The notes beneath the pieces are model-generated. The model was given only the letters and a program-made list of their open reading frames with translations, was not told where the DNA came from and searched no databases. A stretch of DNA of 64,000 bases from Halorutilales archaeon Cl-col2-1 (GTDB lineage: Archaea; Halobacteriota; Halobacteria; Halobacteriales; Afararchaeaceae): the NCBI GenBank assembly GCA_041891055.1, contig CP169074.1, forward strand, positions 1,120,001 to 1,184,000, given 5' to 3'. Below, piece by piece: positions 4,938 to 18,680 of this stretch (positions are counted from its first letter, which is position 1; every line of letters starts with the position of its first letter). The position numbers and the translations under genes are program-made.

Positions 4938-4985
4938 ACGGCTAACTACCTTTCTGTTTCAGCTTCGTATTTTTCGTGTCTTCGT

Positions 4986-5000
4986 ACCCAACTGGTTTGG
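4986..5000 (+). promoter_or_regulatory. Bat upstream activator sequence (UAS), followed by TATA-like ATATATAT at 5011-5018
   Basis: ACCCAACTGGTTTGG has one mismatch to the recalled Halobacterium UAS consensus ACCcnactagTTnGG; ends 38 nt before ATG 5038; bat is in the same cluster. Confidence 0.75.
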
Positions 5001-5037
5001 CTGTGTCTTGATATATATCTGTGACGTATATAAGCCG

Positions 5038-5103
5038 ATGCCAGCACCAGGTTCGAGACAGAGTTCTGAGCCGAGAAGGGATTCAAGGGGGGACACGAGG
5101 TAA
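5038..5103 (+). pseudogene. 21-aa mini-ORF MPAPGSRQSSEPRRDSRGDTR, probable 5' remnant of a bacterio-opsin gene
   Basis: ATG lies where a leaderless start is expected after UAS+TATA; first 6 aa match the recalled Haloarcula cruxrhodopsin N-terminus MPAPGS; TAATG overlap with the transducer start. Confidence 0.5.
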
Positions 5104-6728
5104 TGCGAGGGTCTGAGTCTGTTCTTCCGAGTAGGCTACGGGAGAGCTACACCGCGAAGCTAACCGCGGTTCTCTTCACAGCCGTAGTGACCACGGTGGT
5201 CTTCGGTGTAGTCCTCCTCAGACAGGTCGAAGAGGGAGTCTCAGACACTACTTCGGGTGTCGTGGGTCTGATACTCCTAAACGTCGTCAACCTGGGTCTC
5301 ATAGGATCGACAATAGGGAGTAACACGGCTATATCACTCGAAGTTCTCCAGAGGAAGTCGTCGAGAATGGGTCGGGGAGACCTCGACGTCGACCTCGAAA
5401 CCGACAGACAGGACGAGATGGGAGACCTGTATGACTCGTTCTCCAAGATGAGGGACTCGCTGAGACAGAAGATAGACGAGGCGGAGCGCGAAAGGGAGAG
5501 GGCAGAGAAACAGAAGAGGATAGCCGAGGAGAGACAGGAGGAAGCCGAGGAACTCAACAGACGTCTCGCGGAACAGGCTGAGAGGTACAAGGACGTCATG
5601 AGGGACGCCGCAGACGGAGACCTCACGAGACGTGTCGACGCCGAGACACGTAACGACGCGATGAGGGAGATAGGAGAGGCTTTCAACAGCATGATGGACG
5701 GCTTAGAGGAAACTGTGGCTAAAGTAAAGGGATTCTCGGACGAGGTCTCCGACTCGACACGTGAGGTCGAGAGAGGCGCGAACGAGATACGTGAGTCGAG
5801 CGAGCAGATAAACAGTTACATACGTGAGATATCACGCGACACCGACGAACAGGACGACAAGCTACAGAACATATCGACCGAGATGAGCGACCTGTCGGCG
5901 ACTATAGAGGAGGTCGCGTCGTCGGCTGACGAGCTAGCGGGGACTTCACAGAGGATGGCTGATCTGGGTCAGGAGGGAAGAGACGCAGCCGAGATAGCCA
6001 TAGACGAGATCAACCAGGTCGAGTCTGAGACCGAGAAGACGGTCGAGGAGATAGTCAAGCTCGACGAACAGATGAAGGAGATAGAGGAGATAGTCGATGT
6101 CATCACCGACATAGCTGAGGAGACCAATCTACTCGCTCTCAACGCGAGCATAGAGGCGGCGAGGGCGGGAGAGGAAGGAGACGGCTTCGCTGTCGTCGCC
6201 GATCAGATAAAGGAGCTCGCCGAGGAGACAAAGAAGTCGGCGTCCGAGATAGAAGAGGTCATATCCGACGTACAGGATCAGACCGAGAGCACAGTGGACG
6301 ACATACGTGAGACGAGCGACAGGATAACCAAGGGTGTCGAGACAGTCGAGGACACCGTCGAATCCCTCGAAGAGATAGTCGGATACGTCGAGGAGACCAA
6401 CTCGGGAGTCCAGGAGATCCGTGACGTGACCGAGAGCCAGGCTAACTCAACACAGGAGGTCGTGTCGGTCACCGACGAGGTCTCCGAGCTCAGCAGAAAC
6501 ACAGCCGACGAGGCGAAGAAAGTCACCGACGAAGCCGAGAGCCAGACCGAGATAGTCAAGTCAGTCTCGGAGAGAGCCGAGAGACTCGCCGATGGAGCCG
6601 ACGACCTCAACGAACTCCTTGAGGGCTTCGATGTCAAATCTAAGTCTGACGTCAACGGCAATGTAACGGCGCGAGGAGTAGAGAGGTCGGATTTAGCACA
6701 CGCAGACGGAAAGGGAGGTGAGAGGTAG
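5103..6728 (+). CDS. Sensory rhodopsin transducer, HtrII-like (2 TM, 2 HAMP, MCP signalling domain)
   Basis: NLGLI...SRMGRGDLDVDLETDRQDEMGDLY closely resembles N. pharaonis HtrII; MCP hairpin ETNLLALNASIEAARAGEEGDGFAVVA; abuts the opsin gene. Confidence 0.92.
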   Translation: MRGSESVLPSRLRESYTAKLTAVLFTAVVTTVVFGVVLLRQVEEGVSDTTSGVVGLILLNVVNLGLIGSTIGSNTAISLEVLQRKSSRMGRGDLDVDLETDRQDEMGDLYDSFSKMRDSLRQKIDEAERERERAEKQKRIAEERQEEAEELNRRLAEQAERYKDVMRDAADGDLTRRVDAETRNDAMREIGEAFNSMMDGLEETVAKVKGFSDEVSDSTREVERGANEIRESSEQINSYIREISRDTDEQDDKLQNISTEMSDLSATIEEVASSADELAGTSQRMADLGQEGRDAAEIAIDEINQVESETEKTVEEIVKLDEQMKEIEEIVDVITDIAEETNLLALNASIEAARAGEEGDGFAVVADQIKELAEETKKSASEIEEVISDVQDQTESTVDDIRETSDRITKGVETVEDTVESLEEIVGYVEETNSGVQEIRDVTESQANSTQEVVSVTDEVSELSRNTADEAKKVTDEAESQTEIVKSVSERAERLADGADDLNELLEGFDVKSKSDVNGNVTARGVERSDLAHADGKGGER

Positions 6729-7433
6729 ATGGTTGAGATAACCGACACGACGACATGGTTCTGGATAGGCGCGGTAGGTATGTTCGCGGGAATGGTAGTC
6801 TTCGTAGCCTCAGGTGTCAGGAGCGACGACGAGACGAGGAAGTACTACGGTGTCATAGCCGCGGTCGCCTTCATAGCGTCCGCAGCCTACGCTGCGATGG
6901 CTCTCGGTATAGGCTCGCTCGAGTCCGACGGAGTGACCGTATACCTCCCGAGGTACGCAGACTGGCTGATAACGACACCCCTACTCATACTTGACCTGGG
7001 TCTCCTCGCGGGTGTCAATAAGAAGACGTACGCGGCTCTGATAGGCTCAGACGTCGCGATGATAGGATCGGGAGTCGCGGCGTCGCTCTCGACCTCCTGG
7101 GTCAAGTACGTCTACTTCGGCGTGGGATCGGTGGCTTACGTGGTTCTCCTCTACCTACTCATGAGAACCCTCTCGGACGCCGCGAGGGGCAGAGGAGTCG
7201 CGTCTCTGTTCCAGAAGCTAAGGAACCTGACAGTAGTCCTGTGGTCGGTCTATCCCGTAGTCTGGCTGGTCGGACCCTACGGAACGGGTCTCTTAGAGCC
7301 CGCTACCGAGACTATCATAATACTCTATCTCGACCTCATAACCAAGGTCGGGTTCGGTTTCATACTCGTCAACAGCCACGACGTCCTGTCGTCGATACGT
7401 ACCCCCTCGACGGCGGACGTAGCCGAGACGTGA
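6729..7433 (+). CDS. Microbial rhodopsin, SRII-like scaffold with DTD motif
   Basis: 7 TM; PRYADWLITTPLLILD (helix C), LWSVYPVVW (F), YLDLITKVGFG with retinal Lys206 (G); ATG directly follows the htr TAG. Confidence 0.95.
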   Translation: MVEITDTTTWFWIGAVGMFAGMVVFVASGVRSDDETRKYYGVIAAVAFIASAAYAAMALGIGSLESDGVTVYLPRYADWLITTPLLILDLGLLAGVNKKTYAALIGSDVAMIGSGVAASLSTSWVKYVYFGVGSVAYVVLLYLLMRTLSDAARGRGVASLFQKLRNLTVVLWSVYPVVWLVGPYGTGLLEPATETIIILYLDLITKVGFGFILVNSHDVLSSIRTPSTADVAET

Positions 7434-7439
7434 TCAGTC

Positions 7440-7646
7440 TCAGTTCCCTTCTACCTCAAAGATAACACCGAAGACGTGGTCGTTAGGACACGAGAGACGT
7501 CTTAGCTTTCCTCCTTGGCTTCGCCGTCCCCGGCTTTCCTCGTTCTCGTAGTCAGTCTCGAAGACCCCTTTTACCGTCGCGTCCCACGGGAGACCCATCT
7601 TGACATTGACACCGCATATGGGACACCGTATATCCCGAACAGGCAT
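7440..7646 (-). CDS. brz: Brz-like bacteriorhodopsin-regulating small zinc-finger protein
   Basis: CPICG-VKMGLP-ATVK...CPNDHVF matches the recalled H. salinarum Brz pattern (CPRCG..VKMGLP..ATVK..CRNDHEF); divergent from brp as in H. salinarum. Confidence 0.8.
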   Translation of the reverse strand: MPVRDIRCPICGVNVKMGLPWDATVKGVFETDYENEESRGRRSQGGKLRRLSCPNDHVFGVIFEVEGN

Positions 7647-7695
7647 CGTTGGGAGACGATGGTAGACAAGTGCTTAAGCCTACTCCTTGTTGTAC

Positions 7696-7710
7696 ACCCC
7701 AACAGTTAGG
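7696..7710 (+). promoter_or_regulatory. Second Bat UAS upstream of brp, followed by TATA-like TTTTAATA at 7716-7723
   Basis: ACCCCAACAGTTAGG keeps all ACC..TTnGG core positions; ends 37 nt before brp ATG 7747. Confidence 0.65.
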
Positions 7711-7746
7711 CCTCGTTTTAATAGTGTGACGGAGCCTATTCTAAGT

Positions 7747-8766
7747 ATGACGAGTTTTGGTCTCCGAAGACTACGGAGACGCGGACGGTCGAGTTCGTAC
7801 CTCACGAGGTCGAGGCTCGGTTTACTTTCACTGACGGTCGGCTTCGGTATCTTGGGTCTCGCGGGCATAGGAGTCTCACTGCGTCTCCAGTCTGCCGTCT
7901 ACCTGATAGGGATGGTGGCGATGAACCTCCCCCAGGGTGGCTACGAGAACTTACATAACCTCGACGGACGTGGCACGAGGTTCCAGATGGGATACATAGC
8001 CTCCTACGTACTCACCATAGCGGCTTTCACAGCCGTCTTCTTCTTCGACCCCGTCGTGGGACTGGGTCTCGGCGTCTTTGTCGCGATGGCTAAGGGAGGC
8101 TTCGGAGACCTCAGCGTCTTGGAGACCATCTACGGCGACCACATAAAGACAGATATCCAGAGATGGCTAGCTGCGGCGGTCAGAGGTGGTGTCGTGATGG
8201 TAGTTCCGATGGCTTTCCATCCCGAAGCTTTCTACGGTCTGAGCTCCGTGATGGTGAATATATTCGATCCCGGTGGTCTCACGAGACTCGGATACGGGAG
8301 CTTCGAGACCGCGAGCCGTGTCCTCGGGGCTGTTCTCTGTGCCATAACTGGGGTTTACCTGGTTCTGGGGTACATACGGTCAGACGCGACGGGGTCGTTC
8401 AGGTCTGACGCGGGCGAAATCTTCCTCCTAGTCGCCTACTTCGCAGTGACTCCCGTCGTGGTAGCCGTTGGTCTCTACTTCCCCCTGTGGTACTCGGCGA
8501 GACAGGTCGCCCGTATGAGGGCGGTCGACGACTCCGAGACGGAACGGGACGGCTTTGACGCCCCGGCTGTAGTAGTCTCACTCGTCGTGGCGAGCGTCGT
8601 GTTAGGTGGTCTCGTGTGGTCAGTCTCGCCACAGCCCCTCGGTGGTGCGAGAATCCTACCAGGACTCGTGGCTTTCTGGACGGTATTCGTGAGCATAATA
8701 GCACTTCCCCACGTAGTCATTGGAGGGCTTATAGACAGGTCGAGGGGGATATGGTACGTCCCATGA
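7747..8766 (+). CDS. brp: Brp/Blh family beta-carotene 15,15'-dioxygenase (Brp-type)
   Basis: GMVAMNLP, QRWLAAAVRGG, GLYFPLWYSARQVAR, IIALPHVV..RGIWYVP; start moved to ATG 7747, downstream of TATA. Confidence 0.9.
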   Translation: MTSFGLRRLRRRGRSSSYLTRSRLGLLSLTVGFGILGLAGIGVSLRLQSAVYLIGMVAMNLPQGGYENLHNLDGRGTRFQMGYIASYVLTIAAFTAVFFFDPVVGLGLGVFVAMAKGGFGDLSVLETIYGDHIKTDIQRWLAAAVRGGVVMVVPMAFHPEAFYGLSSVMVNIFDPGGLTRLGYGSFETASRVLGAVLCAITGVYLVLGYIRSDATGSFRSDAGEIFLLVAYFAVTPVVVAVGLYFPLWYSARQVARMRAVDDSETERDGFDAPAVVVSLVVASVVLGGLVWSVSPQPLGGARILPGLVAFWTVFVSIIALPHVVIGGLIDRSRGIWYVP

Positions 8767-8841
8767 CCAAAAACGACAGTCACCCGGAGAGAAATCGAGA
8801 AATAACCACGAAAGAAACAAGACTAGACAGGTCAAGATAAG

Positions 8842-10872
8842 ATGACGGATCAAGGAAGGATACTCTACGCAGGCGGTGAGATAGACGGTATCAGCCCTGA
8901 GTCGGTAGACGAGAGTCTCGACCGGCTCGAGGTCGTACACGAATCCGACTTCGTCACGGCTCTCGAATCCGCCAGGGAAACCGACGTCAGAGGCGTGATC
9001 GCCTCCCACCGGACTAACGGCTTCAGAGGCGTCGACCTACTTGAGTCGATGCGTCAGGAGGGGCTGGGAATCCCCGTAGCCGTGGTAGTTCGGGAGGAGG
9101 AGGCAGGCGAAGTGGCACGCAGAGCAGTCGAAGCCGACGCCACGGCTTTGGTGCCAGCAGGCGATGACGACGCTCTCGAAGCCTTAGCTGACGCGATCGA
9201 GAGAAACATGAGCACCGAGGATGGACGTAGACGTGAAGAAGACAGACGTATGCCAATATCCGACCTGCCCTTCGAGGACGAGAGACGTCTCAAGGAACGT
9301 GTCCTTGACGAGGCACCCATAGGAATCACGGTCTCGAACGCCGACGACCCCGATAACCCCATAATCTACCTCAACAAGTCGTTCGAGAGTCTGACTGGGT
9401 ACTCGGCCGAGGAGGTAGTGGGTGCGAACCACAGGTTTCTACAGGGAAGCGAGACCGACACCGAGAAGGTCGAGGAGCTCGGAAGAGGTGTCTCAGAGGG
9501 GCGTGACACACGGGTTACACTGCGTAACTACACCCGGGACGGTGACCTCTTCTGGAACCAGGTAGACGTAAGCCCTATATCCGACTCAGAGAACGAGACG
9601 TCTTATTACGTGGGGTTCCAGATGGACGTCACCGAGCGCGAGAGATTCAGACACGAGCTTGAGGAGGAGCGCGAGGCTTTCGACCGTCTCATAGACCGGA
9701 TGAACAGTCTCATCAACGACATCACGAGATGTCTTGTACGTGCCGAGAGCCGCGAGGAGGTCGAGGAGTCAGTCGTCGAAAAGCTCGGCGAGGAGTACGA
9801 TCAGGCTTGGATCGGAAGGTACAGCCCCACGGACGGCGAGGTGACTGTAGACGAGACCTCGATACGAGACAGAGAGGAACGACAGAATAGAATCAGCGTC
9901 GGAGAGGAAGACTCCGAGCGAGTAGTGAGTGACGTAGTCGAGAGACACGAGACAAGTGTCGTCGAGGGCGACGAAGCCGAGTCCCTCCGTCGTCGTATAC
10001 TGGACGGGTCAGTCGACGACTCCAAGTCGGGGTCTTCTTTCTGTGTCACCGTCCCCGTGACCTACCAGTCGACGACATACGGTGTGATTGGTGTCTGGGG
10101 AGACGGTGAGAGACTCGACACCAGGGAGCCTGGGCTTCTCGCGTCGGTCGCCAGAAGCGTTGGGGCATCGATCAACGACGTCTTGACTAAGAGGACTATG
10201 TCGACCGACTCGGTGGTGCGCCTGGGTATTCGGATAGAGAACGACGGATCGCCTCTCGTGGAAGTCGCCGACGAGGTTGGAGGGAGTCTCGAATACGAGG
10301 GTGCCGTGACACAGGGCGGCGGTATAGCTATACTCGTGAGTACGTCAGCCGACCCAGGGGAAGCCGTCGAAGCTGCGGGACAGAACAGCGGCGTTGTAGA
10401 CGCCGAGGTACTCGTCTCAGACGAAGAAGGAACTGTTGTACAGATACGTGTCGATCGAATCGGTCTCGTGAGTGAGGTCTCCGAGCACGGTGGCCGTCTG
10501 AGGTCGATGGAGGTGACACCCAACGGCGTCGAGGCGGAGCTGGACGTCGGAAACGAGAGAGAAGCACGCCGTCTCCTCGACCGTCTGAAACAGACCTACT
10601 CAGGGTCGGAAGCTGACGTCAGTCTCGCAACCTACAGAACAGTAGAGGAAGCATCACAGACGACACAAGGCTTCAGAAACGAGGTAAGAGACCGTCTGAC
10701 ACAGCGTCAGATGACAGCCCTCCAGAAGGCGTATACGGGAGGCTTCTTCGACTGGCCCAGGCGTGTCGAGGGCGAGAGGCTCGCCGAGTCGATGGACATA
10801 GTTCCGTCGACCTACCACCAGCATCTACGTACCGCGGAGAGAAAGCTCATAGAGGCTTTCCTAAACGGCTGA
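8842..10872 (+). CDS. bat: Bacterio-opsin activator (receiver-like, PAS/LOV, GAF, HTH_10)
   Basis: NHRFLQG...LRNYTRDGDLFWNQV LOV-like PAS; C-terminal LTQRQ..AYTGGFFDWPR..STYHQHLRTAERK HTH; follows brp. Confidence 0.92.
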   Translation: MTDQGRILYAGGEIDGISPESVDESLDRLEVVHESDFVTALESARETDVRGVIASHRTNGFRGVDLLESMRQEGLGIPVAVVVREEEAGEVARRAVEADATALVPAGDDDALEALADAIERNMSTEDGRRREEDRRMPISDLPFEDERRLKERVLDEAPIGITVSNADDPDNPIIYLNKSFESLTGYSAEEVVGANHRFLQGSETDTEKVEELGRGVSEGRDTRVTLRNYTRDGDLFWNQVDVSPISDSENETSYYVGFQMDVTERERFRHELEEEREAFDRLIDRMNSLINDITRCLVRAESREEVEESVVEKLGEEYDQAWIGRYSPTDGEVTVDETSIRDREERQNRISVGEEDSERVVSDVVERHETSVVEGDEAESLRRRILDGSVDDSKSGSSFCVTVPVTYQSTTYGVIGVWGDGERLDTREPGLLASVARSVGASINDVLTKRTMSTDSVVRLGIRIENDGSPLVEVADEVGGSLEYEGAVTQGGGIAILVSTSADPGEAVEAAGQNSGVVDAEVLVSDEEGTVVQIRVDRIGLVSEVSEHGGRLRSMEVTPNGVEAELDVGNEREARRLLDRLKQTYSGSEADVSLATYRTVEEASQTTQGFRNEVRDRLTQRQMTALQKAYTGGFFDWPRRVEGERLAESMDIVPSTYHQHLRTAERKLIEAFLNG

Positions 10873-10915
10873 TATGTCGGGAGCCTCTGAAGCAAACCCA
10901 AGAGGGTGGTAGATT

Positions 10916-11734
10916 ATGTCTTACCTCGCCTATGTGACTGTGTCAGTAGTGGGGGTCTCAGGTGTGGTGGCTATCGTAGCGTGGCACAGACGGGGACTGA
11001 GAAGGCTGTCCGACGTCCTCGGTGTAGGTGTCCTGAGCCTGATAGCCGTGGGTTACACATTCGGATGGGACGCGTATCTCATATACAGGGATGTATGGTG
11101 GTACGGCGACGGTGTCGTAAGCTTCCGCATCGTAGGAGTCCCCGCAGGGGAGATACTCTTCTTCGTAGCCCAGACTTCGCTGACATCGTTCTGGCTGTAC
11201 AGTCTCAAGCCCGACTTCGGCAGGAGTCTCGGAGAGACCGAGCCCGATAGACACCGCGACGGATTCGGGCTCGACCCGGCTCTCGTTACTGTCGTTCTAG
11301 GAGGCGTATCAGGTCTCCTTCTCGTCTTCGTGGCTCCCCAGAGGTACTACTACCTGGGTCAGATACTCGTCTGGGGAGCCCCGATGGTGTTCTTCCTCTG
11401 GTACGTCGGCAGTGAGATACTCCGTGAAAACATACGTCTCGTCGTAGCCGGAGTGGCTGTTCCGACCGTATACCTCTGGGGAGTCGACAGAGCCGCTATA
11501 CAGAGGGGTCTCTGGACCATCTCGGAGGAACACTCGACCGGAATAGGACTTCTAGGTCTACCCTTGGAGGAGATGGTGTTCTTCGGAGTGACTAACAGCC
11601 TCGTCGTCTTCGGCTTAGTCCTATATCTCTGGGTGGCTGAGCGCGCTAGAGACGGAGAAAAAGAAGAGGACTATCTGACTGGCATGAGACGCCTGATACT
11701 CGGGGTCAGAGACGGGGACGGGAACACGAGATAG
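10916..11734 (+). CDS. crtY: Lycopene beta-cyclase (CrtYcd fusion type)
   Basis: Two cyclase repeats WD..I...W.Y..GVP..E.LFF and VDR.AI..G.W.I..GLPLEEMVFF; in retinal cluster. Confidence 0.88.
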   Translation: MSYLAYVTVSVVGVSGVVAIVAWHRRGLRRLSDVLGVGVLSLIAVGYTFGWDAYLIYRDVWWYGDGVVSFRIVGVPAGEILFFVAQTSLTSFWLYSLKPDFGRSLGETEPDRHRDGFGLDPALVTVVLGGVSGLLLVFVAPQRYYYLGQILVWGAPMVFFLWYVGSEILRENIRLVVAGVAVPTVYLWGVDRAAIQRGLWTISEEHSTGIGLLGLPLEEMVFFGVTNSLVVFGLVLYLWVAERARDGEKEEDYLTGMRRLILGVRDGDGNTR

Positions 11735-11743
11735 AGGTCAAGG

Positions 11744-11995
11744 TCAGAAGAAGACTACCGACACGGCGTTGATGACTACGAGGACAACCCCGGCTCCGAG
11801 AAGAAGACTGCTATCTCTCTTTCTGCCCTCGTAGACGTAGTAAGCAGCCACGATGACGGCGGAAAGAGCGACGAAGTTCGCCGACATGAGGTTGAGGATA
11901 TCGAGGAGTATCCCGAGACTAAAGAAGATGACGACTCCCTGGAGAAGTACTACGAGCGCGTTCTTCGAGGACTGATCCATCGTCGACATACTCAT
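11744..11995 (-). CDS. Small hypothetical membrane protein (3 TM)
   Basis: 83-aa hydrophobic ORF with host codon usage. Confidence 0.6.
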   Translation of the reverse strand: MSMSTMDQSSKNALVVLLQGVVIFFSLGILLDILNLMSANFVALSAVIVAAYYVYEGRKRDSSLLLGAGVVLVVINAVSVVFF

Positions 11996-12042
11996 CTATA
12001 CGTGAGACTGACGCATATGGCTGTCGAATACGACGAGTTTTC

Positions 12043-12534
12043 CTATCCCCTTACAGGGATCTTCCCGAGCTGCACAGTCCTCTCAACTGTCTCACCGTCG
12101 GCGCGAGCCGTGACGTCCATCTCGGCGGGGGTCGAACCTCTCGGTATCTCCCACGTCGAGGTTACCTCTCGCGACTCACCAGGAGGCACAGTCACCGAGT
12201 CGCCACCCTGAGACTCCTGTCCGTCTGCGACCACGTTTCCCAGGATGAGTTCGTAGTCGTCCTGTGTCGGGTTGTCGACGGCGACAGTAATGGTGAGGCT
12301 CCACGTATCCTCACCCCTCTCGATAACTCCCGACTCCAGAGTCTCTGTCTGTGGTGTCTCGGTCAGAACCTCGTCTCCTATTCCGACTAGGCGTTGTTCC
12401 TCTTCCTCCTCCTCTAGCCATGGTATGTCGAAGAAATGCTGTCCTATCAGACCCGAGAATGTGAGTATCTCGGTGAGTATCGGGATACCTATACCGAGCC
12501 CTATCATGAGACGTATCAGGGTTCGTCTCTTCAT
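12043..12534 (-). CDS. Membrane-anchored acidic protein downstream of the ba3 oxidase operon
   Basis: N-terminal basic + hydrophobic segment, beta-rich acidic domain. Confidence 0.7.
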   Translation of the reverse strand: MKRRTLIRLMIGLGIGIPILTEILTFSGLIGQHFFDIPWLEEEEEEQRLVGIGDEVLTETPQTETLESGVIERGEDTWSLTITVAVDNPTQDDYELILGNVVADGQESQGGDSVTVPPGESREVTSTWEIPRGSTPAEMDVTARADGETVERTVQLGKIPVRG

Positions 12535-12724
12535 AGATACCTCAGCTCCTGTTGACGGAAGACCTGGTTGATTCTTTCCGTTGAGCCTACTACGTTCATA
12601 GTAACACTTTGCTCGCTTTATTATTAAGCATTGTCACAACGCAAACGGCTGTATAGTTCTGTGACTCGACTTCGCTTCTGTGGTATGCGTCGAAAAAAGT
12701 AAAGTACGGATAAGACCGGTTAAG

Positions 12725-14434
12725 CTACGGTCTGACCGGAACTGCTCCCGGCGTGAGAGGACCGTCTGCTACCCAGCTCATCACGGGTACTCCGAAGGCG
12801 AGTAGGAGGAGCACGACTGCTATTGCTCCCCAGAGCTTGAGGTTGTCGAGTATGAGAGGACCGTCCTCGGGACCCGACAGGGGCTCGGGAATCGTGAAGT
12901 CGTGCTGAGCGGCGTCTATCCTACTTCCAGCGAAGACCGAAGCGACAAGGACAGCTATGAACGCGAGCGACGATATGAAGAGGAATACTCCTCCTATCGC
13001 TAGCTGCCATCTGATCTCCGACATGCTTCCGAGAGGAGCCGTGAACTCGAAGAGCCTGTAAGTCGGCTCGGCGGTTCTCCTCGGCGATCCGGCGAGTCCG
13101 GCACGGTGCATCGCGTTCGACATGAAGGTCATTCCTATGAACCACAGGTAGGGCTGAACCATGGCGAGACCCTTGAGGCTGAGATCCTTGCCCGTGAGCT
13201 GTGGGTAGAGCCAGTAGATGAGTCCCATCATCGTGAGCGTGACCGCACTACCGACTGTGAGATGGAAATGTCCGGGTACCCAGAGCGTGTTGTGGACGAG
13301 GTAGTTGAGGTTGAGTGCTGCGTTGACCATTCCGCTGAATCCACCCGCCGCGAAGAAGAGTCCGGCGAGTGCCATCGCGGAGAACTGAGGCTTCTCCCAC
13401 GGAAGTGCCTTGAGCCAGCCGAGTCTTCCGGTTCCGCCACGCTGTCTCGCTCCGTGCTCCATGCTCGCCACCGCGGTGAAGGCGGTGAGGAGGCTCGGGA
13501 GGAGGAGGAACATCGTGTTAGACATCACGACGTACTTGAAGCCGTTCGGAACACCCGGATCCATGTACTGATGGTGGAATCCGACGGGTGCCGAGAGCAG
13601 GAGGAAGAGTATGAAGACGACCCTTGCGAGCGGATCGCTGAAGAGACGTCCTCCCGACAGCTTCGGAAGTACGGTGTACCACGCGAGGTACGCGGGCATC
13701 AGCCAGAAGTAGACGATAGGATGCCCGGTTATCCAGAACAGGGTACGTGTCAGAAGCGGGTCAACCTGTCCTATGATGCCTAGCGACCACGGGAGGAGGA
13801 AGAAGATAACCGATATCGCGATACCGAGAGACGCGAGCTGCCAGAACATCATCGTCGTGACAGCGATAAACGTCTGGAGAGGTATGCGCTCGTCGGGGTT
13901 GTCCTTCTTCCAGTCCCAGAGTGCCGTGAAGTAGTCGAATCCGGCTAGCCAGCTCGCTACGACGTAAAGCACGAGACCGACGTAGAATATGGGATGTGCC
14001 TTGAGCGGGGCGTAGAAGGTGTAGAGGACGTCCGCCTGCATATTGCCGAGTATCGGGACGTCACCCTTGATGAATCCCGCGAACATCGCTATCTCGGCGA
14101 GTATTATGCCGATCAGACCGAGTCTGACCCAGCCACACGTGAACTTGGGATTACCGAGTGACCTGTCTAGGCTCCTCGGAACCGCCCACGTGAATGTGCC
14201 GAGTATAGCGAGTATCGCCCAGAAGATCACCATGTTGACGCCGTGGAGCGTCAGGTAGGTGTAGTAGTCTCCCGACGATATTATTCTTAGCTTATCTGTC
14301 CTGTGCAGCACCTGGAGAAGACCCATTATGGCTCCTATCCCCAGGGTGATTACTCCGACCACGAAGATTCGACGGACTGCCTTAGCCTCCGTAGGGAACT
14401 TGTCCTTGAAGAGCTCGTTCTGTCCTGTTGCCAT
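12725..14434 (-). CDS. cbaA: ba3-type heme-copper oxidase subunit I
   Basis: LTLHG, FWITGHPIVYFW, GFHHQY, WVPGHFHLTVG heme/CuB ligands. Confidence 0.95.
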   Translation of the reverse strand: MATGQNELFKDKFPTEAKAVRRIFVVGVITLGIGAIMGLLQVLHRTDKLRIISSGDYYTYLTLHGVNMVIFWAILAILGTFTWAVPRSLDRSLGNPKFTCGWVRLGLIGIILAEIAMFAGFIKGDVPILGNMQADVLYTFYAPLKAHPIFYVGLVLYVVASWLAGFDYFTALWDWKKDNPDERIPLQTFIAVTTMMFWQLASLGIAISVIFFLLPWSLGIIGQVDPLLTRTLFWITGHPIVYFWLMPAYLAWYTVLPKLSGGRLFSDPLARVVFILFLLLSAPVGFHHQYMDPGVPNGFKYVVMSNTMFLLLPSLLTAFTAVASMEHGARQRGGTGRLGWLKALPWEKPQFSAMALAGLFFAAGGFSGMVNAALNLNYLVHNTLWVPGHFHLTVGSAVTLTMMGLIYWLYPQLTGKDLSLKGLAMVQPYLWFIGMTFMSNAMHRAGLAGSPRRTAEPTYRLFEFTAPLGSMSEIRWQLAIGGVFLFISSLAFIAVLVASVFAGSRIDAAQHDFTIPEPLSGPEDGPLILDNLKLWGAIAVVLLLLAFGVPVMSWVADGPLTPGAVPVRP

Positions 14435-14437
14435 TCT

Positions 14438-14953
14438 TTATACCTCCGATGCGTTGAACTCCGACTTGGGAACCACGTTTAGCTTACCCTCCATCGTGTG
14501 GTGTCCCGAGCCGCAGTACTCGTTACATACTATGCCGTACTCTCCGGGCTCGTCGAAAGTCGTCGTCATCTGCCCGACCTGTCCGGGTATAGCCATCGAG
14601 TTGACGTTGGTGTCGACTATCTCGAAGCCGTGTATGACGTCGGGGCTCGTGTAGTAGAAGGTGACCTCCGAGTCGGTCGGAACTGTTATGGGCTGTGTCG
14701 TTCCGGGCATGTAGAGGAACTGACGTACAAGGACGTTAACCTCGTACTCGTTGGGACCCACCTTATGTACACCACGGTTCTGTGCCGAGAATCTCTCACT
14801 CTGTGTGACGTTCGCGGGACTGATGGTTCCTCCGCTGTCACTTACCATCTTGATACCCGGACCGAGCGCGCCGTACGTAACGGTGGCTACGAGACCGACT
14901 ATGAAGACGAGTGCGACCGCGAGCCATATCTTCTCGTACTTGTGTATATCCAT
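14438..14953 (-). CDS. cbaB: ba3-type oxidase subunit II (CuA)
   Basis: DVIHGF...CNEYCGSGHHTM CuA motif; single TM. Confidence 0.95.
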   Translation of the reverse strand: MDIHKYEKIWLAVALVFIVGLVATVTYGALGPGIKMVSDSGGTISPANVTQSERFSAQNRGVHKVGPNEYEVNVLVRQFLYMPGTTQPITVPTDSEVTFYYTSPDVIHGFEIVDTNVNSMAIPGQVGQMTTTFDEPGEYGIVCNEYCGSGHHTMEGKLNVVPKSEFNASEV

Positions 14954-14959
14954 GAGTTA

Positions 14960-15118
14960 TCACGCTCCTATTACTGAGGGTCTTCCGAGGAACTCTAGGA
15001 AGTACACCCAGATCCAGAGGAAGACCAGTATTAAGAAGTATATTGCTACGAGCGTTGCTGTGCCTGATGGCGTGAAGTCGTCGTGTCCCAGCTCGCGTTC
15101 GATCTCCTCCGAGCTCAC
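14960..15118 (-). CDS. cbaD: ba3-type oxidase small subunit (CbaD/IIa-like), 52 aa, absent from ORF track
   Basis: MSSEEIERELGHDDFTPSGTATLVAIYFLILVFLWIWVYFLEFLGRPSVIGA; GTG start with GGGGGTGG SD; directly upstream of cbaB. Confidence 0.8.
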   Translation of the reverse strand: MSSEEIERELGHDDFTPSGTATLVAIYFLILVFLWIWVYFLEFLGRPSVIGA

Positions 15119-15258
15119 GATACCACCCCCAAACTGTACTTGCGTCTGTGCAGCCGCATATTCTAGTCTTTGACCAACTGATACTTAAATCCTCCAGTCT
15201 GTTTTCAGAGGCTGGGAAAAATGCTTAAGTATATGACACCCGACCCTAACTAGTAAAC

Positions 15259-15447
15259 ATGGTAAGTTCACGCATAGTAGCTGTGATGGCGGCGGTAGCT
15301 GCCGCTCTGTTTGGCATAGCATACGCGACAACCACGTCGAGCCCCGCTACATACCTCTCGACAGTCAGCGTACTTCTCACGGGACTCAGCCTCTACCTTA
15401 TGTTCGGTCCCACAGAGGCGGAGAAGAAGGGTCTCTCGACGCACTAA
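15259..15447 (+). CDS. Small 2-TM membrane protein, divergent from the cba operon
   Basis: 62-aa hydrophobic ORF preceded by TATA-like TTAAGTATA. Confidence 0.6.
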   Translation: MVSSRIVAVMAAVAAALFGIAYATTTSSPATYLSTVSVLLTGLSLYLMFGPTEAEKKGLSTH

Positions 15448-15498
15448 GATAAGACGAGAAGTGCGCTTTCTTCATAGCCATCCTACCGAGAAAGCCTG

Positions 15499-16308
15499 AT
15501 GCTAGGACTCACAATAGGGTCTGACGGCGTCGGCTTAGCGCTCTTCTTTCTCATAGGACTCCTGGGTGGTGCACACTGTCTAGGTATGTGTGGACCCCTC
15601 GTGATGCTGTACTCGTCGAGGATAGACGAGAAGAAGAGCCACGACGCTCTGACCTTCTACGAGATACGTCAGCACGCTCTGTTTAACCTCGGACGTACGG
15701 TTAGCTACGCGGCTATAGGCGCGGCGATGGGTGTGCTCGGCACCGTTTTCTTCTCGTTCGGCGAGATAGCCGACATAGGCGAGTGGTTTCAGGCAGCGAC
15801 GGGGGTCGGAATAGGAGTTCTGATCGCAGTCTCAGGTGTGAGCTACGTCGTAGGAGGGTCGGGAGGAAGCTTCGACGTGACATCGACTACCGGAGGCGTC
15901 ATAGGACGCGCACTCGGGGCTCTCAAGGAACGTATAGACGAGAGGGTACAGGGACCCGGCATACTCGTCTTAGGTATGTTACACGGTCTGCTTCCGTGTC
16001 CCATAATCTATCCCGCCTACTTCTACGCATTCGGGACGGGATCACCCGTCGAGGGATTCGTCTACCTCGCTGTCCTTGGGCTCGGAACATTCCCGACACT
16101 CTTCGTCTACGGAACCTTCTTCCAGTCGCTCGGTGCCGAAAGACGCGCAAGCCTCCACAGGGTTCTCGGCGTCGTCTTCATAGTACTCGGATACATGACC
16201 TTCTCGATGGGTCTGAGCGCGATAGGTATCAGCCTCCCGAGCGTGATGCCGCCGTTCTACCAGCCGCTTGAGAGGTTCAGACAGCTGTGTGAGCCGATTC
16301 TAAACTAA
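15499..16308 (+). CDS. Sulfite exporter TauE/SafE (DsbD_2) family membrane protein, probable oxidase assembly factor
   Basis: GGAHCLGMCGP, FNLGRTVSY, GLLPCPIIY motifs. Confidence 0.88.
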   Translation: MLGLTIGSDGVGLALFFLIGLLGGAHCLGMCGPLVMLYSSRIDEKKSHDALTFYEIRQHALFNLGRTVSYAAIGAAMGVLGTVFFSFGEIADIGEWFQAATGVGIGVLIAVSGVSYVVGGSGGSFDVTSTTGGVIGRALGALKERIDERVQGPGILVLGMLHGLLPCPIIYPAYFYAFGTGSPVEGFVYLAVLGLGTFPTLFVYGTFFQSLGAERRASLHRVLGVVFIVLGYMTFSMGLSAIGISLPSVMPPFYQPLERFRQLCEPILN

Positions 16309-16325
16309 GCTAAGAGGGTGGTAAT

Positions 16326-18680
16326 ATCTCGAAAGTAAAGACAGAGACAGAAGAAGACTCCAACTCGTGTACACTCTGTGACCTCCCCACACCCGAGCCT
16401 CCGGTGACCGACGACGAGACGGAGGGCGAGTTCTGCTGCCGCGGCTGTCTCGAAGTCTACAAGGCGCTCGGAGACGTCGACCCCGACGAGGCGAGCGAAG
16501 AGCTAGTCGACGACGAGCCTGACGATATCGAAGGAGCCGAGACCGAGTTCCTCTCTGTCGAGGGCATGCACTGTTCGGCGTGTGAGGCGTTCATAGAGTC
16601 GAACGCGGTCGAGAAGGAGGGGGTCAAGACAGCCGAGGCGAGCTACGCCACCGACATGGTGAAGATGAGCTACGACCCCGACGAGGTCACGCCCGACGAT
16701 CTCCCCGGAGCCATAACCGGGATGGGGTACACGGCTCGGAGACAGGACGAGGAGGTCAGGGAGGACGAGAGGACGACACTCCTAGGACGTCTCTTGGTCG
16801 GAGGCTTCTTCGGAATGCTCGTGATGATGAGCTATGTCCTCTTCCTCTACCCCAAGTACCTCGGTCTCGACTCTCTCCTCTTGGAGAGCTTAGACACGAG
16901 CGCGGGAACCTACTTACTCGGAAACCTCTGGGTGATGACCTCGGTCGTCCTCTTCTACACGGGATTCCCGATACTCAGAGGAGCATACGTCAGCCTCAAG
17001 GCGGGACAGCCCAACATGGATCTCTTAGTCGCTCTCGCAGCCGTGAACGCTTACGTCTTCAGCAGTATCCGTCTCCTCTTAGGCGGCACAGACCTCTACT
17101 TCGACATCTCGGTAACCATAGTCATGGCTGTCATGGTAGGCAACTACTACGAGGACACTGTGAAGAAGAGGGCGGTCGAGGGTCTCTCGGATCTCACCTC
17201 GATACAGGTCAACGAGGCGACTCTGAGGAGAGACGGCGACCAGGAGAAAGTAAACGTCGACGAACTCGAACCCGGCGACGAAGTCGTCGTCAAGCCGGGA
17301 GAGAGAATACCTGTCGACGGGATCGTCTCCGAGGGGGTCGCGGCGGTAGACGAGTCGCTCATCACGGGTGAGTCGGTTCCCGTCACGAAGTCGGTGGGTG
17401 ACGAGGTCGTCGGAGGTGCTGTAGTGACAGACGCAAGCCTCGTCGTCGAGGTCGGGGACGATGTCACGAGCACACTCGACAGACTCGTCAACCTACTCTG
17501 GGACATACAGTCGTCGCGCACAGGCGTCCAGAGGCTTGCCGACAAGATAGCCGCCGTCTTCGTGCCTCTCGTCGTGACGGTAGCCGTCGTCGTCTTCGTA
17601 GCCAACATCGTGATGGGATCGGCTCCGACCTCCGCCTTCCTGACTTCTCTCGCAGTACTCGTCGTCTCGTGTCCGTGTGCACTCGGTCTCGCCACACCGC
17701 TCGCGGTTGCATCGGGGATGCGTGAGTCACTCGACAAGGGAATAGTGATAGCAGACGGCTCCGTCTTCGAGGACGCGGACGAGGCGGATGTCGTAGCCTT
17801 CGACAAGACGGGTACTCTCACGACGGGAGAGATGACTGTCGCCGACGTCCACGCCGACAGCCCCGACGAGGTAGCCGAGAGGGCATCGGGAGTCGAACAG
17901 TTCTCCGAACATCCGATAGCCGAGGCGGTCACCGAACACAGTAAGCCGAAGAGAGACGTCGAGGCGGACTCCTTCGAGCGTCACCCGGGCGAGGGGGTCA
18001 GCGGCGTCGTCGATACGGACAGGGTCGCGGCGGGAAGCCAAGACCTCTTCGGAAGCCTCGGCTGGGAGATAAGGAACGAGGATAACAGCCGCGCCGACGA
18101 GGTCGAGAGTAACGGTAACGTCGCCGTATTCGTGGGATGGGACGGCGAGTCGAAGGGCGTCATAGAGATCGGCGACAGCCTCAGAGACGGCTGGAAGGAC
18201 GTCCTCTCAGATCTGTCGGAGAGCCACGAGGTAGTCGTCATAACCGGCGACTCGTCGGGCGACCGTCTGAGGAGACACGGCTTCATAGACGAGGTCTTCG
18301 CGGGGGTACCGCCGGAGGCTAAGGTCGAGACTGTCGAGAGGCTCGACGGAACGAGCGTGATGGTGGGAGACGGAACCAACGACGCTCCCGCTCTCGCTAC
18401 CGCCGACTTAGGAATAGGAATGGGAGGCGGAACCGCCGCGGCGACAGACGCAGCCGACGCCGTCGTGACGACTGACAGTCTCGAAGACCTCACGAGCATC
18501 TTCAGGATAACACGTTCGACACGGTCGAGGATAAGACAGAACCTGGGGTGGGCTTTCCTCTACAACATCATAGCCATACCCGTCGCCGCGCTCGGCTACA
18601 TAAATCCGCTGTTCGCCGCGCTCGCTATGGCTGCGAGCTCTATAATAGTCGTGGTAAACTCATCACGTTCGATGGACTGA
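16326..18680 (+). CDS. P1B-type heavy-metal (Cu) translocating ATPase, CcoI/FixI-like
   Basis: CTLCDLP..FCCRGC, GMHCSAC, CPC, DKTGT, SEHP, GDGTND; start uncertain (ATC 16326 proposed; first GTG is 16404). Confidence 0.92.

What the first reader, a model, noticed from the sequence alone, without database searches (positions are those of the whole stretch)
4986..11734. A bacteriorhodopsin regulon apparently rewired around a transducer-coupled rhodopsin
Seen: brz, brp, bat and crtY lie next to an htr-opsin pair; UAS-like boxes precede both the htr-opsin unit and brp; there is no intact bop in the window. Established: in H. salinarum, Bat/UAS/Brz/Brp control the proton-pump gene bop, while htr-sop pairs are usually separate units. 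Inference: the light/oxygen-inducible purple-membrane regulatory circuit now drives a phototaxis (or dual pump/sensor) module, an arrangement I do not recognise from described haloarchaea.
Basis: partly seen in the sequence, partly recalled or inferred. Interest (0 to 1): 0.8.

Follow-up and report, generated by a model that had tools for sequence, protein, structure and literature searches.

The report
Light sensor under proton-pump promoter
In a deep-branching salt-loving archaeon that has no light-driven pump gene, the pump's on-switch sequence and regulators sit on its only rhodopsin, a likely swimming-control light sensor that keeps a pump-type residue, so it may show how sensors arose from, or took the place of, pumps.

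Summary
The cluster is carB | htr>opsin> <brz | brp>bat>crtY>. The opsin is the only one in a 99.5% complete genome, and bop, bap, blp and bac are not found. A Bat-UAS matrix built only from other genomes' bop/brp promoters ranks the site before htr first of 4.13 million positions (23.1 bits, next 17.8). Of 66 other htr-opsin promoters, 64 score under 8. The sister species G001 has the same order, bridged by separately assembled contigs, so this is no assembly collapse. The transducer is NpHtrII-type. The opsin has SRII coupling residues (Y174, Y199, T204 equivalents) but keeps the pump donor D96, which only this genus has among 66 transducer-linked opsins. It branches as sister to all sampled haloarchaeal sensory rhodopsins, in a host on the deepest sampled Halobacteria branch; a mosaic SRII origin is not rejected. 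Most likely Bat now drives a phototaxis operon. Pumping is possible but unsupported: T46 and E194 are missing. Caveats: no RNA data, a second TATA box, Brp lacks two conserved histidines, and in G001 bat is frameshifted and crtY is not found. New variant; interest 0.72.

The parts
4951..4975 (+). T-rich tracts after the carB stop (4937), likely the carB terminator, separating carB from the htr promoter
   Evidence: sequence; role inferred; this stretch is variable, with indels, in G001
4985..5000 (+). Bat UAS-type box before the htr-opsin operon
   Evidence: rank 1 of 4,129,134 positions, 23.1 bits; 14 of 16 bases kept in G001, 17.2 bits
5008..5015 (+). TATA-like box 7 nt after the UAS, the spacing seen in bop/brp promoters
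   Evidence: identical in G001
5027..5034 (+). second TATA-like box, a possible Bat-independent promoter
   Evidence: identical in G001; untested
5103..6728 (+). halobacterial transducer, NpHtrII-type (2 TM, no periplasmic domain, HAMP, MCP signal domain); N74 and G83 equivalents kept
   Evidence: TM2-HAMP tree groups it with the NpHtrII clade, 96*
6729..7433 (+). the only opsin of the genome (234 aa): R75, D78, T82, D89 (=BR D96), D108, M111, Y175, Y200, D202, T205, K206; starts directly after the htr stop
7440..7646 (-). brz zinc-finger regulator (CxxC...CxxxH intact), convergent on the opsin
7695..7710 (+). UAS between the divergent brz and brp promoters; brp TATA at 7716-7723
   Evidence: identical in G001; same place as in 16 canonical clusters
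7747..8766 (+). brp (Brp/Blh family), the only family member in the genome; the two N-terminal conserved His are Gln and Asn
8842..10872 (+). bat, Halobacterium-type activator (PAS/LOV-like without Cys, GAF, HTH_10)
   Evidence: frameshifted in G001
10916..11734 (+). crtY lycopene beta-cyclase, the only one in the genome
   Evidence: not found in G001

Best explanation
The genome keeps the bacteriorhodopsin regulators (brz, brp, bat, crtY) but no pump gene, and its strongest Bat-type UAS promoter sits on an htr-opsin operon, so Bat likely switches on a transducer-coupled light sensor instead of purple membrane. Shown: gene order, a single opsin, no bop/bap/blp/bac found, UAS rank and spacing, the same order in a sister species, and archaellin and che genes in the genome. 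Inferred: Bat (with Brz) binds the UAS and co-induces htr-opsin with brp-bat-crtY under low oxygen or light. The opsin would bind retinal at K206 and pair with its own Htr through Y200-N74, signal through the Y175-T205 relay to CheA/CheY and the archaellum, and cycle faster than ordinary SRII because D89 can reprotonate the Schiff base. Net pumping would be minor while the co-translated Htr is bound (suppression of pumping by Htr is recalled, not checked). Origin is a separate open question: an early-branching sensor that kept D96 and the UAS (about 0.5), or an NpSRII-type operon that captured the bop promoter and gained BR-type residues in helices C-D (about 0.4).
For: UAS: rank 1 genome-wide. 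9 of 14 held-out bop promoters score 10 bits or more, against 2 of 66 other htr-opsin promoters and 0.5% of random 310-nt windows. From the UAS through the second TATA, G001 differs at 3 positions, while the flank just upstream has indels. Bat is in the Halobacterium-type clade. Pump accessories bap, blp and a bac orthologue are not found. Sensor: Htr is NpHtrII-like, E 2e-32, with N74/G83. The opsin has Y199 as in 50 of 50 SRs and 0 of 19 BRs, and T204 as in 29 of 50 SRs and 0 of 19 BRs. The AlphaFold model (pLDDT 88.8) matches SRII entries first. BR with A215T/P200T/V210Y signals through HtrII (PMC3274258, passages). Archaellin and CheW-domain genes are present. All cluster genes have dN/dS of 0.15-0.37 between G000 and G001.
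Against: No expression or binding data. A second conserved TATA could drive Bat-independent transcription. In G001 bat is frameshifted in a G run (same letters in contigs of runs X2 and X3, which may be its source) and crtY is not found (98% complete, contig ends just after bat), yet htr and opsin are 95-96% identical, so the sensor may not need Bat. Brp keeps 1 of 6 Blh-type His columns where other Brp keep 3 (this Gln/Asn pair in 2 of 120 homologues) and there is no blh, so retinal supply is in doubt. The T189 contact is Glu190. No UAS was found before the two phytoene-synthase-family genes. In H. salinarum htrI is repressed under phototrophic growth (PMC2020435) and SRII is described as the high-oxygen sensor (PMC1885257), so Bat control would invert the known logic.
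Confidence: 0.58

Rival explanations
1. Dual pump and sensor: the opsin replaced bacteriorhodopsin as the cell's light-driven proton pump and also signals; Bat induces it for energy under low oxygen.
For: Full D85/T89/D96/D212 set plus D115, M118 and the E204 equivalent. D96 in 2 of 66 transducer-linked opsins, both this genus. Residues 73-116 are closer to BR (mean identity 0.58) than to the NpSRII clade (0.44). It has the strongest UAS of the genome, as a pump gene would.
Against: T46 (Thr in 19 of 19 BRs) is Ile and E194 (19 of 19) is Tyr. bap, bac and blp are not found. It is encoded 1:1 behind a full transducer. HwMR has D84/D95/T216 and shows no H+ pump activity (PMC8354847, PMC12078690, passages).
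Confidence: 0.17
2. Decaying relic: after bop was lost, brz/brp/bat/crtY are on their way out, the UAS is a leftover, and htr-opsin runs from the second TATA box, perhaps on scavenged retinal or with none.
For: bat frameshift and no crtY found in G001. Brp histidine losses in both species. brz, brp and bat diverge faster (dS 0.25-0.52) than htr and opsin (0.13-0.15). Long Bat branch.
Against: All ORFs are intact in G000. dN/dS is 0.20-0.37 for brz, brp and both halves of bat, so selection held until recently. The UAS is near-consensus in both species while its flank drifts. K206 and the retinal pocket are conserved.
Confidence: 0.2
3. Chance neighbourhood: rhodopsin and retinal genes simply cluster, and the box is a chance match.
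For: Retinal genes lie next to htr-sop pairs elsewhere without a UAS: blh-type gene with or without crtY in L160-L163 and L173; brp in L089.
Against: The box is the top site of 4.13 million, correctly spaced to a TATA and in the one intergenic region where it would matter. The pairs with retinal genes nearby score 6 bits or less.
Confidence: 0.04
4. Assembly artefact: a bop copy was collapsed or the junctions are chimeric.
For: None found.
Against: Same order in G001 at 91% identity over 11 kb. Contigs of runs X2 and X3 bridge carB-htr and htr-opsin-brz-brp-bat; X1, another study, bridges carB-UAS-htr. One opsin in each of G000 and G001.
Confidence: 0.01

Closest known systems
Halobacterium salinarum bop regulon (Bat, UAS, Brz, Brp, crtB1, blp)
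   Same: Divergent brz/brp with a shared UAS, brp-bat unit, Halobacterium-type Bat (50% identity to the L069 copy), UAS-TATA spacing (PMC2253796 part 1; PMC1447603 and PMC1502140 passages).
   Different: No bop, bap, blp or bac, no crtB in the cluster; the opsin unit is convergent on brz, carries a transducer and has its own UAS; Brp lacks two more histidines.
Natronomonas pharaonis SRII-HtrII
   Same: htr-sop operon, short-loop two-helix transducer, N74/G83, Y174/Y199/T204, short B-C loop; top fold matches.
   Different: D96 instead of F86, D115/M118 instead of N105/V108, Glu at the T189 site; 41-42% identity; UAS upstream, which none of the NpSRII-clade operons examined has.
Haloquadratum walsbyi middle rhodopsin (HwMR)
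   Same: D85 + D96 + T204 equivalents; described as lying between BR and SRII (PMC12078690, PMC8354847, passages).
   Different: MR has Met at the Y199 site, signals only as an A201T/M211Y mutant, and its N-terminal half is BR-like with T46 and a long B-C loop. Here Y199 is native and a cognate Htr is in the operon. MR was not in my trees.
Engineered BR triple mutant A215T/P200T/V210Y (Sudo and Spudich 2006, seen as summarised in PMC3274258)
   Same: A D96-bearing opsin with T204 and Y199 coupled to HtrII.
   Different: Natural, on an SR-like backbone, two of the three residues, with its own transducer.
htr-sop operons of G361 and G276 (another family, incomplete genomes)
   Same: Shared UAS-like box before htr (13.5 and 10.2 bits); G361 has brp 1.7 kb away; G276 has brz-bat elsewhere.
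   Different: Ordinary DTY opsin, weaker box, no brz-brp-bat cluster at the locus.

Membership tests
Bat/UAS (bop) regulon | Bat orthologue with PAS, GAF and HTH | tested here: met
Bat/UAS (bop) regulon | UAS 5-8 nt before the TATA of target genes | tested here: met
Bat/UAS (bop) regulon | divergent brz/brp, brp-bat unit | tested here: met
Bat/UAS (bop) regulon | bop and its accessories (bap, bac, blp, crtB1) as targets | tested here: not met
Bat/UAS (bop) regulon | Bat-dependent induction by low oxygen or light | not testable with these tools
   needs transcripts and mutants
Sensory rhodopsin II | operon with a cognate HtrII; N74/G83 | tested here: met
Sensory rhodopsin II | Y174, T204, Y199 | tested here: met
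Sensory rhodopsin II | T189 contact | tested here: not met
   Glu190; also variable among SRs, Thr in 26 of 50
Sensory rhodopsin II | no carboxylate at position 96 | tested here: not met
   D89; 64 of 66 linked opsins lack it
Sensory rhodopsin II | nested in the SRII clade | tested here: inconclusive
   free tree places it outside all SRs (100/92*); grouping with the NpSRII clade not rejected (p-AU 0.157)
Sensory rhodopsin II | blue-green repellent phototaxis | not testable with these tools
   needs spectroscopy and taxis assay
Bacteriorhodopsin | D85/T89/D96/D212/K216 | tested here: met
Bacteriorhodopsin | T46, S141, E194, A215, V210 | tested here: not met
   I43, G133, Y184, T205, Y200
Bacteriorhodopsin | member of the haloarchaeal BR clade, no transducer | tested here: not met
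   (p-AU 0.036 for grouping with BR/HR, marginal)
Middle rhodopsin | D85+D96+T204 set | tested here: met
   PMC12078690
Middle rhodopsin | BR-like backbone, Met at Y199 site | tested here: not met
   PMC8354847
Middle rhodopsin | same clade as HwMR | not tested
   HwMR was not available as a stored sequence for trees
Brp/Blh dioxygenase (active) | iron-binding histidines | tested here: not met
   1 of 6 Blh-type His columns kept; mapping to His21/78/188/256 of bioRxiv 10.64898/2026.08.06.743266 is my inference; H. salinarum Brp itself keeps only 3

The most novel reading that the evidence does not exclude
A living intermediate of the pump-to-sensor transition: the earliest-branching haloarchaeal sensory rhodopsin, in the deepest-branching lineage of Halobacteria, still carrying the pump's proton donor and the pump's Bat promoter, and able both to pump protons and to steer the archaellum through its own transducer.
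Probability: 0.2. Interest if true: 0.9.

Novelty: new variant of a known kind. Interest (0 to 1): 0.72.

Why it matters
How haloarchaeal sensory rhodopsins arose from pumps has been probed with engineered mutants (BR triple mutant, MR double mutant) and with HwMR, which neither pumps protons nor signals natively. This locus gives a natural D96-bearing opsin with native coupling residues, its own transducer and a pump-type promoter. One expression construct with and without Htr would test whether pumping and signalling coexist. It would also be a Bat target that is a taxis operon, reversing the described pattern in which Bat induces the pump and SRII serves in oxic cells. I found no description in ten literature searches (open-access library only, mostly seen as listings).

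Tried and rejected
(1) A recalled 15-nt UAS consensus was used first: 2 sites at one mismatch or fewer in the genome, 0.9 expected, one of them at 4986; at 3 mismatches the window count is at chance level (14 vs 16). The original papers were not held, so all ranks rest on the de novo matrix. One training region (L070 bop) was dropped because the sampler chose a site far from the TATA, and duplicates were removed (24 sites from 29 regions). (2) Clean bop/sop chimera: not significant against an all-SR profile (permutation P 0.25; mostly D89). Marginal against an NpSRII-clade profile (segment 76-123, P 0.028; a second, post hoc test; 2 of 19 control SRs give segments of similar size). Segment trees could not decide: neither constraint was rejected and the quick searches missed better trees. 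(3) Middle-rhodopsin membership: rejected on backbone; Sudo 2011 not held. (4) Close relatives outside the genus: none above 54% identity among the best 120 of 556 hits, the best 150 of 1319, 6 genome loci and 11 metagenome loci. (5) Expression: no RNA holder listed. (6) Opsin-Htr complex prediction: not run, so no verdict. (7) Wider regulon: no UAS before the two phytoene-synthase-family genes, the crtI-like gene, two archaellin genes, cheW or three of four other htr genes. (8) Codon use and GC of the cluster are like the neighbours, so no sign of recent import. (9) A recalled report of a bat mutation raising halorhodopsin in N. pharaonis could not be found and is not used as evidence. (10) Halorutilus salinus (PMC10134839, passages) has 59.8% GC and two opsins, unlike G000 (55%, one opsin), so that paper does not describe this locus. 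(11) Earlier-findings look-ups by sequence and by words were empty.
Full report
The locus. The window lies in G000 (2.06 Mb, 4 contigs, 99.5% complete). After carB (ends 4937) come htr (5103-6728+) and an opsin (6729-7433+, starting directly after the htr stop), then brz (7440-7646-), brp (probably 7747-8766+), bat (8842-10872+) and crtY (10916-11734+). brz and brp diverge as in H. salinarum (PMC2253796, part 1 of 5 read), but where bop would follow brz there is the 3' end of the opsin gene on the other strand. The opsin is the only one in the genome by three searches. The bop companions are not found: no hit for Blp, none for Bap (profile of 4, best E 0.44), and Bac finds only the general Cdc48 locus. 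Archaellin and CheW-domain genes are present.

Not an artefact. G001, the one other genome of the genus held, has carB-htr-opsin-brz-brp-bat in the same order at 91% identity over 11 kb and also one opsin. Contigs of runs X2 and X3 bridge carB-htr and htr through bat, and X1, from another study, bridges carB-UAS-htr. X2 and X3 match G001 letter for letter and may be its source.

The UAS. To avoid leaning on a recalled consensus, I took 60 of the 86 brp-type matches (E below 1e-60) outside this genus from a 400-genome sample of the order. 16 have brz-brp-bat; 11 of these have a DTD pump opsin within 9 kb, 5 have no opsin in the stretch held, and none has an htr-opsin pair. 2 of the 60 have such a pair near brp, without brz or a full Bat. 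A Gibbs search of 29 upstream regions (16 brz/brp, 13 bop) found one 16-nt motif 5-8 nt before the TATA. The matrix (24 distinct sites, leave-one-out 8.1-22.4 bits) ranks window 4985-5000 first of 4,129,134 positions in G000 (23.1 bits, next 17.8; with spacer and TATA 26.7, next 16.2). The brp site ranks 13th with TATA. Controls: 9 of 14 held-out bop promoters score 10 or more (3 further rows dropped as training genomes). Of 66 other htr-opsin promoters, picked by likeness to this Htr or opsin and so not a random sample, 64 score under 8; G361 and G276 score 13.5 and 10.2 and share a box. 0.5% of random windows reach 10.2. G001 keeps the site at 17.2 bits, and both TATA-like boxes unchanged. 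The Bat is a true orthologue, in the Halobacterium-type clade at 100*. The described Bat regulon is bop, brp, bat and crtB1, with cdc48a (PMC1502140, PMC1447603, passages), and htrI is repressed under phototrophy (PMC2020435, passage).

The transducer and the opsin. The Htr matches N. pharaonis HtrII (E 2e-32), with N74 and G83 equivalents, the residues tied to SRII coupling (PMC13269893, passages); its TM2-HAMP tree groups it with the NpHtrII clade (96*). Against 19 BRs and 50 SRs, the opsin is SR-like at Y200, T205, G133, I43 and Y184, and BR-like at D89 (D96) and M111; D108 occurs in both groups. Among 66 distinct transducer-linked opsins only G000 and G001 have D96, and among 360 aligned opsins only they combine DTD with Y199 and T204. 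The model folds as a 7-helix rhodopsin closest to SRII. No relative outside the genus exceeds 54% identity in the hits listed.

Where it branches. In a 92-sequence tree with distant outgroups the opsin is sister to all sampled haloarchaeal SRs, SRI included (98/86* with it, 100/92* without it). An 82-sequence tree without helices C-D gave the same place. The host, by EF-2 alone (15 Halobacteria, 6 outgroups), forms with family f11 the deepest branch (100/98*). That fits ancestral retention. Against it: the Htr is not basal, grouping the opsin with the NpSRII clade is not rejected (p-AU 0.157; grouping with BR/HR p 0.036), and residues 76-123 lean to BR against an NpSRII profile (P 0.028, post hoc) though not against all SRs (P 0.25). 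The origin stays open. HwMR, the nearest functional analogue (D84, D95, T216; PMC12078690), lacks Y199, shows no H+ pumping and does not signal unless mutated (PMC8354847), which warns against reading DTD as proof of a pump.

Signs of wear. Brp is the only Brp/Blh gene. Six His columns are conserved in 10 Blh-type proteins; Brp-type proteins, H. salinarum's included, keep three; G000 and G001 keep one. Histidines are the proposed iron ligands (bioRxiv 10.64898/2026.08.06.743266, passages; its supplements are closed and may hold the alignment). In G001 bat is frameshifted in a G run and crtY is not found (its contig ends just after bat). Still, dN/dS is 0.15-0.37 for every cluster gene, including both halves of bat, so the break is recent or reversible.

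Verdict. The most likely working is a Bat-controlled phototaxis operon with a fast-cycling SRII-like receptor (0.58). A decaying regulator with Bat-independent expression (0.2) and a true dual pump/sensor (0.17) remain. The parts are all of known families; their combination, and a transducer-linked opsin with D96, were not found in the genomes or papers searched. Residue roles for T46, E194, M118 and S141, and suppression of pumping by Htr, are recalled and come from no call. New variant of a known kind; interest 0.72.

Noticed in passing
window 11744-18680: Directly after crtY: a COX1/COX2 (cba-like) oxidase operon on the minus strand with small membrane ORFs, then a DsbD_2 protein and a heavy-metal P-type ATPase; a likely low-oxygen respiration cluster beside the Bat cluster.
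   Followed up: no
L037 (G001:C3) about 985-1040: bat is frameshifted in a G run in the sister species; same letters in contigs of X2 and X3; both halves still under purifying selection. Could be recent loss or phase variation.
   Followed up: partly
L131/L197 (G361) and L132/L159 (G276), upstream of htr: A shared UAS-like box before ordinary htr-sop operons in two incomplete genomes with a single opsin found; a possible independent case of Bat-type control of a sensor.
   Followed up: partly
L204-L209 (genus g15): brz divergent from a Bat-like gene with no brp or opsin in the stretch held, in 6 genomes; no UAS in the intergenic region of 5 of 6.
   Followed up: partly
G000:C1:1804286 (minus strand): A 13.6-bit UAS-like site upstream of another htr gene (C1:1803465); the only one of 10 further genes tested with a score above 8.
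   Followed up: no
L070:1870 and L072:16426-17187: A second, BR-derived opsin without D96 (DTV or DTG) inside canonical bop clusters of one genus.
   Followed up: partly
L248; P0043, P0069, P0075, P0088, P0096, P0116: A clade of SR-like opsins with Gln at D85 and the retinal Lys kept; the one with context is transducer-linked.
   Followed up: no
all Brp-type loci, e.g. L069, L093, P0287: Haloarchaeal Brp as a class lacks three of the six histidines conserved in Blh, so its chemistry or role may differ from Blh.
   Followed up: partly
L075-L078 (genus g60): brz-brp-bat clusters with a UAS and no opsin within 9 kb.
   Followed up: no
L239 (G011:C12:165001-167655): An opsin in two pieces about 2 kb apart next to crtY and a blh-type gene in the sister family.
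   Followed up: no
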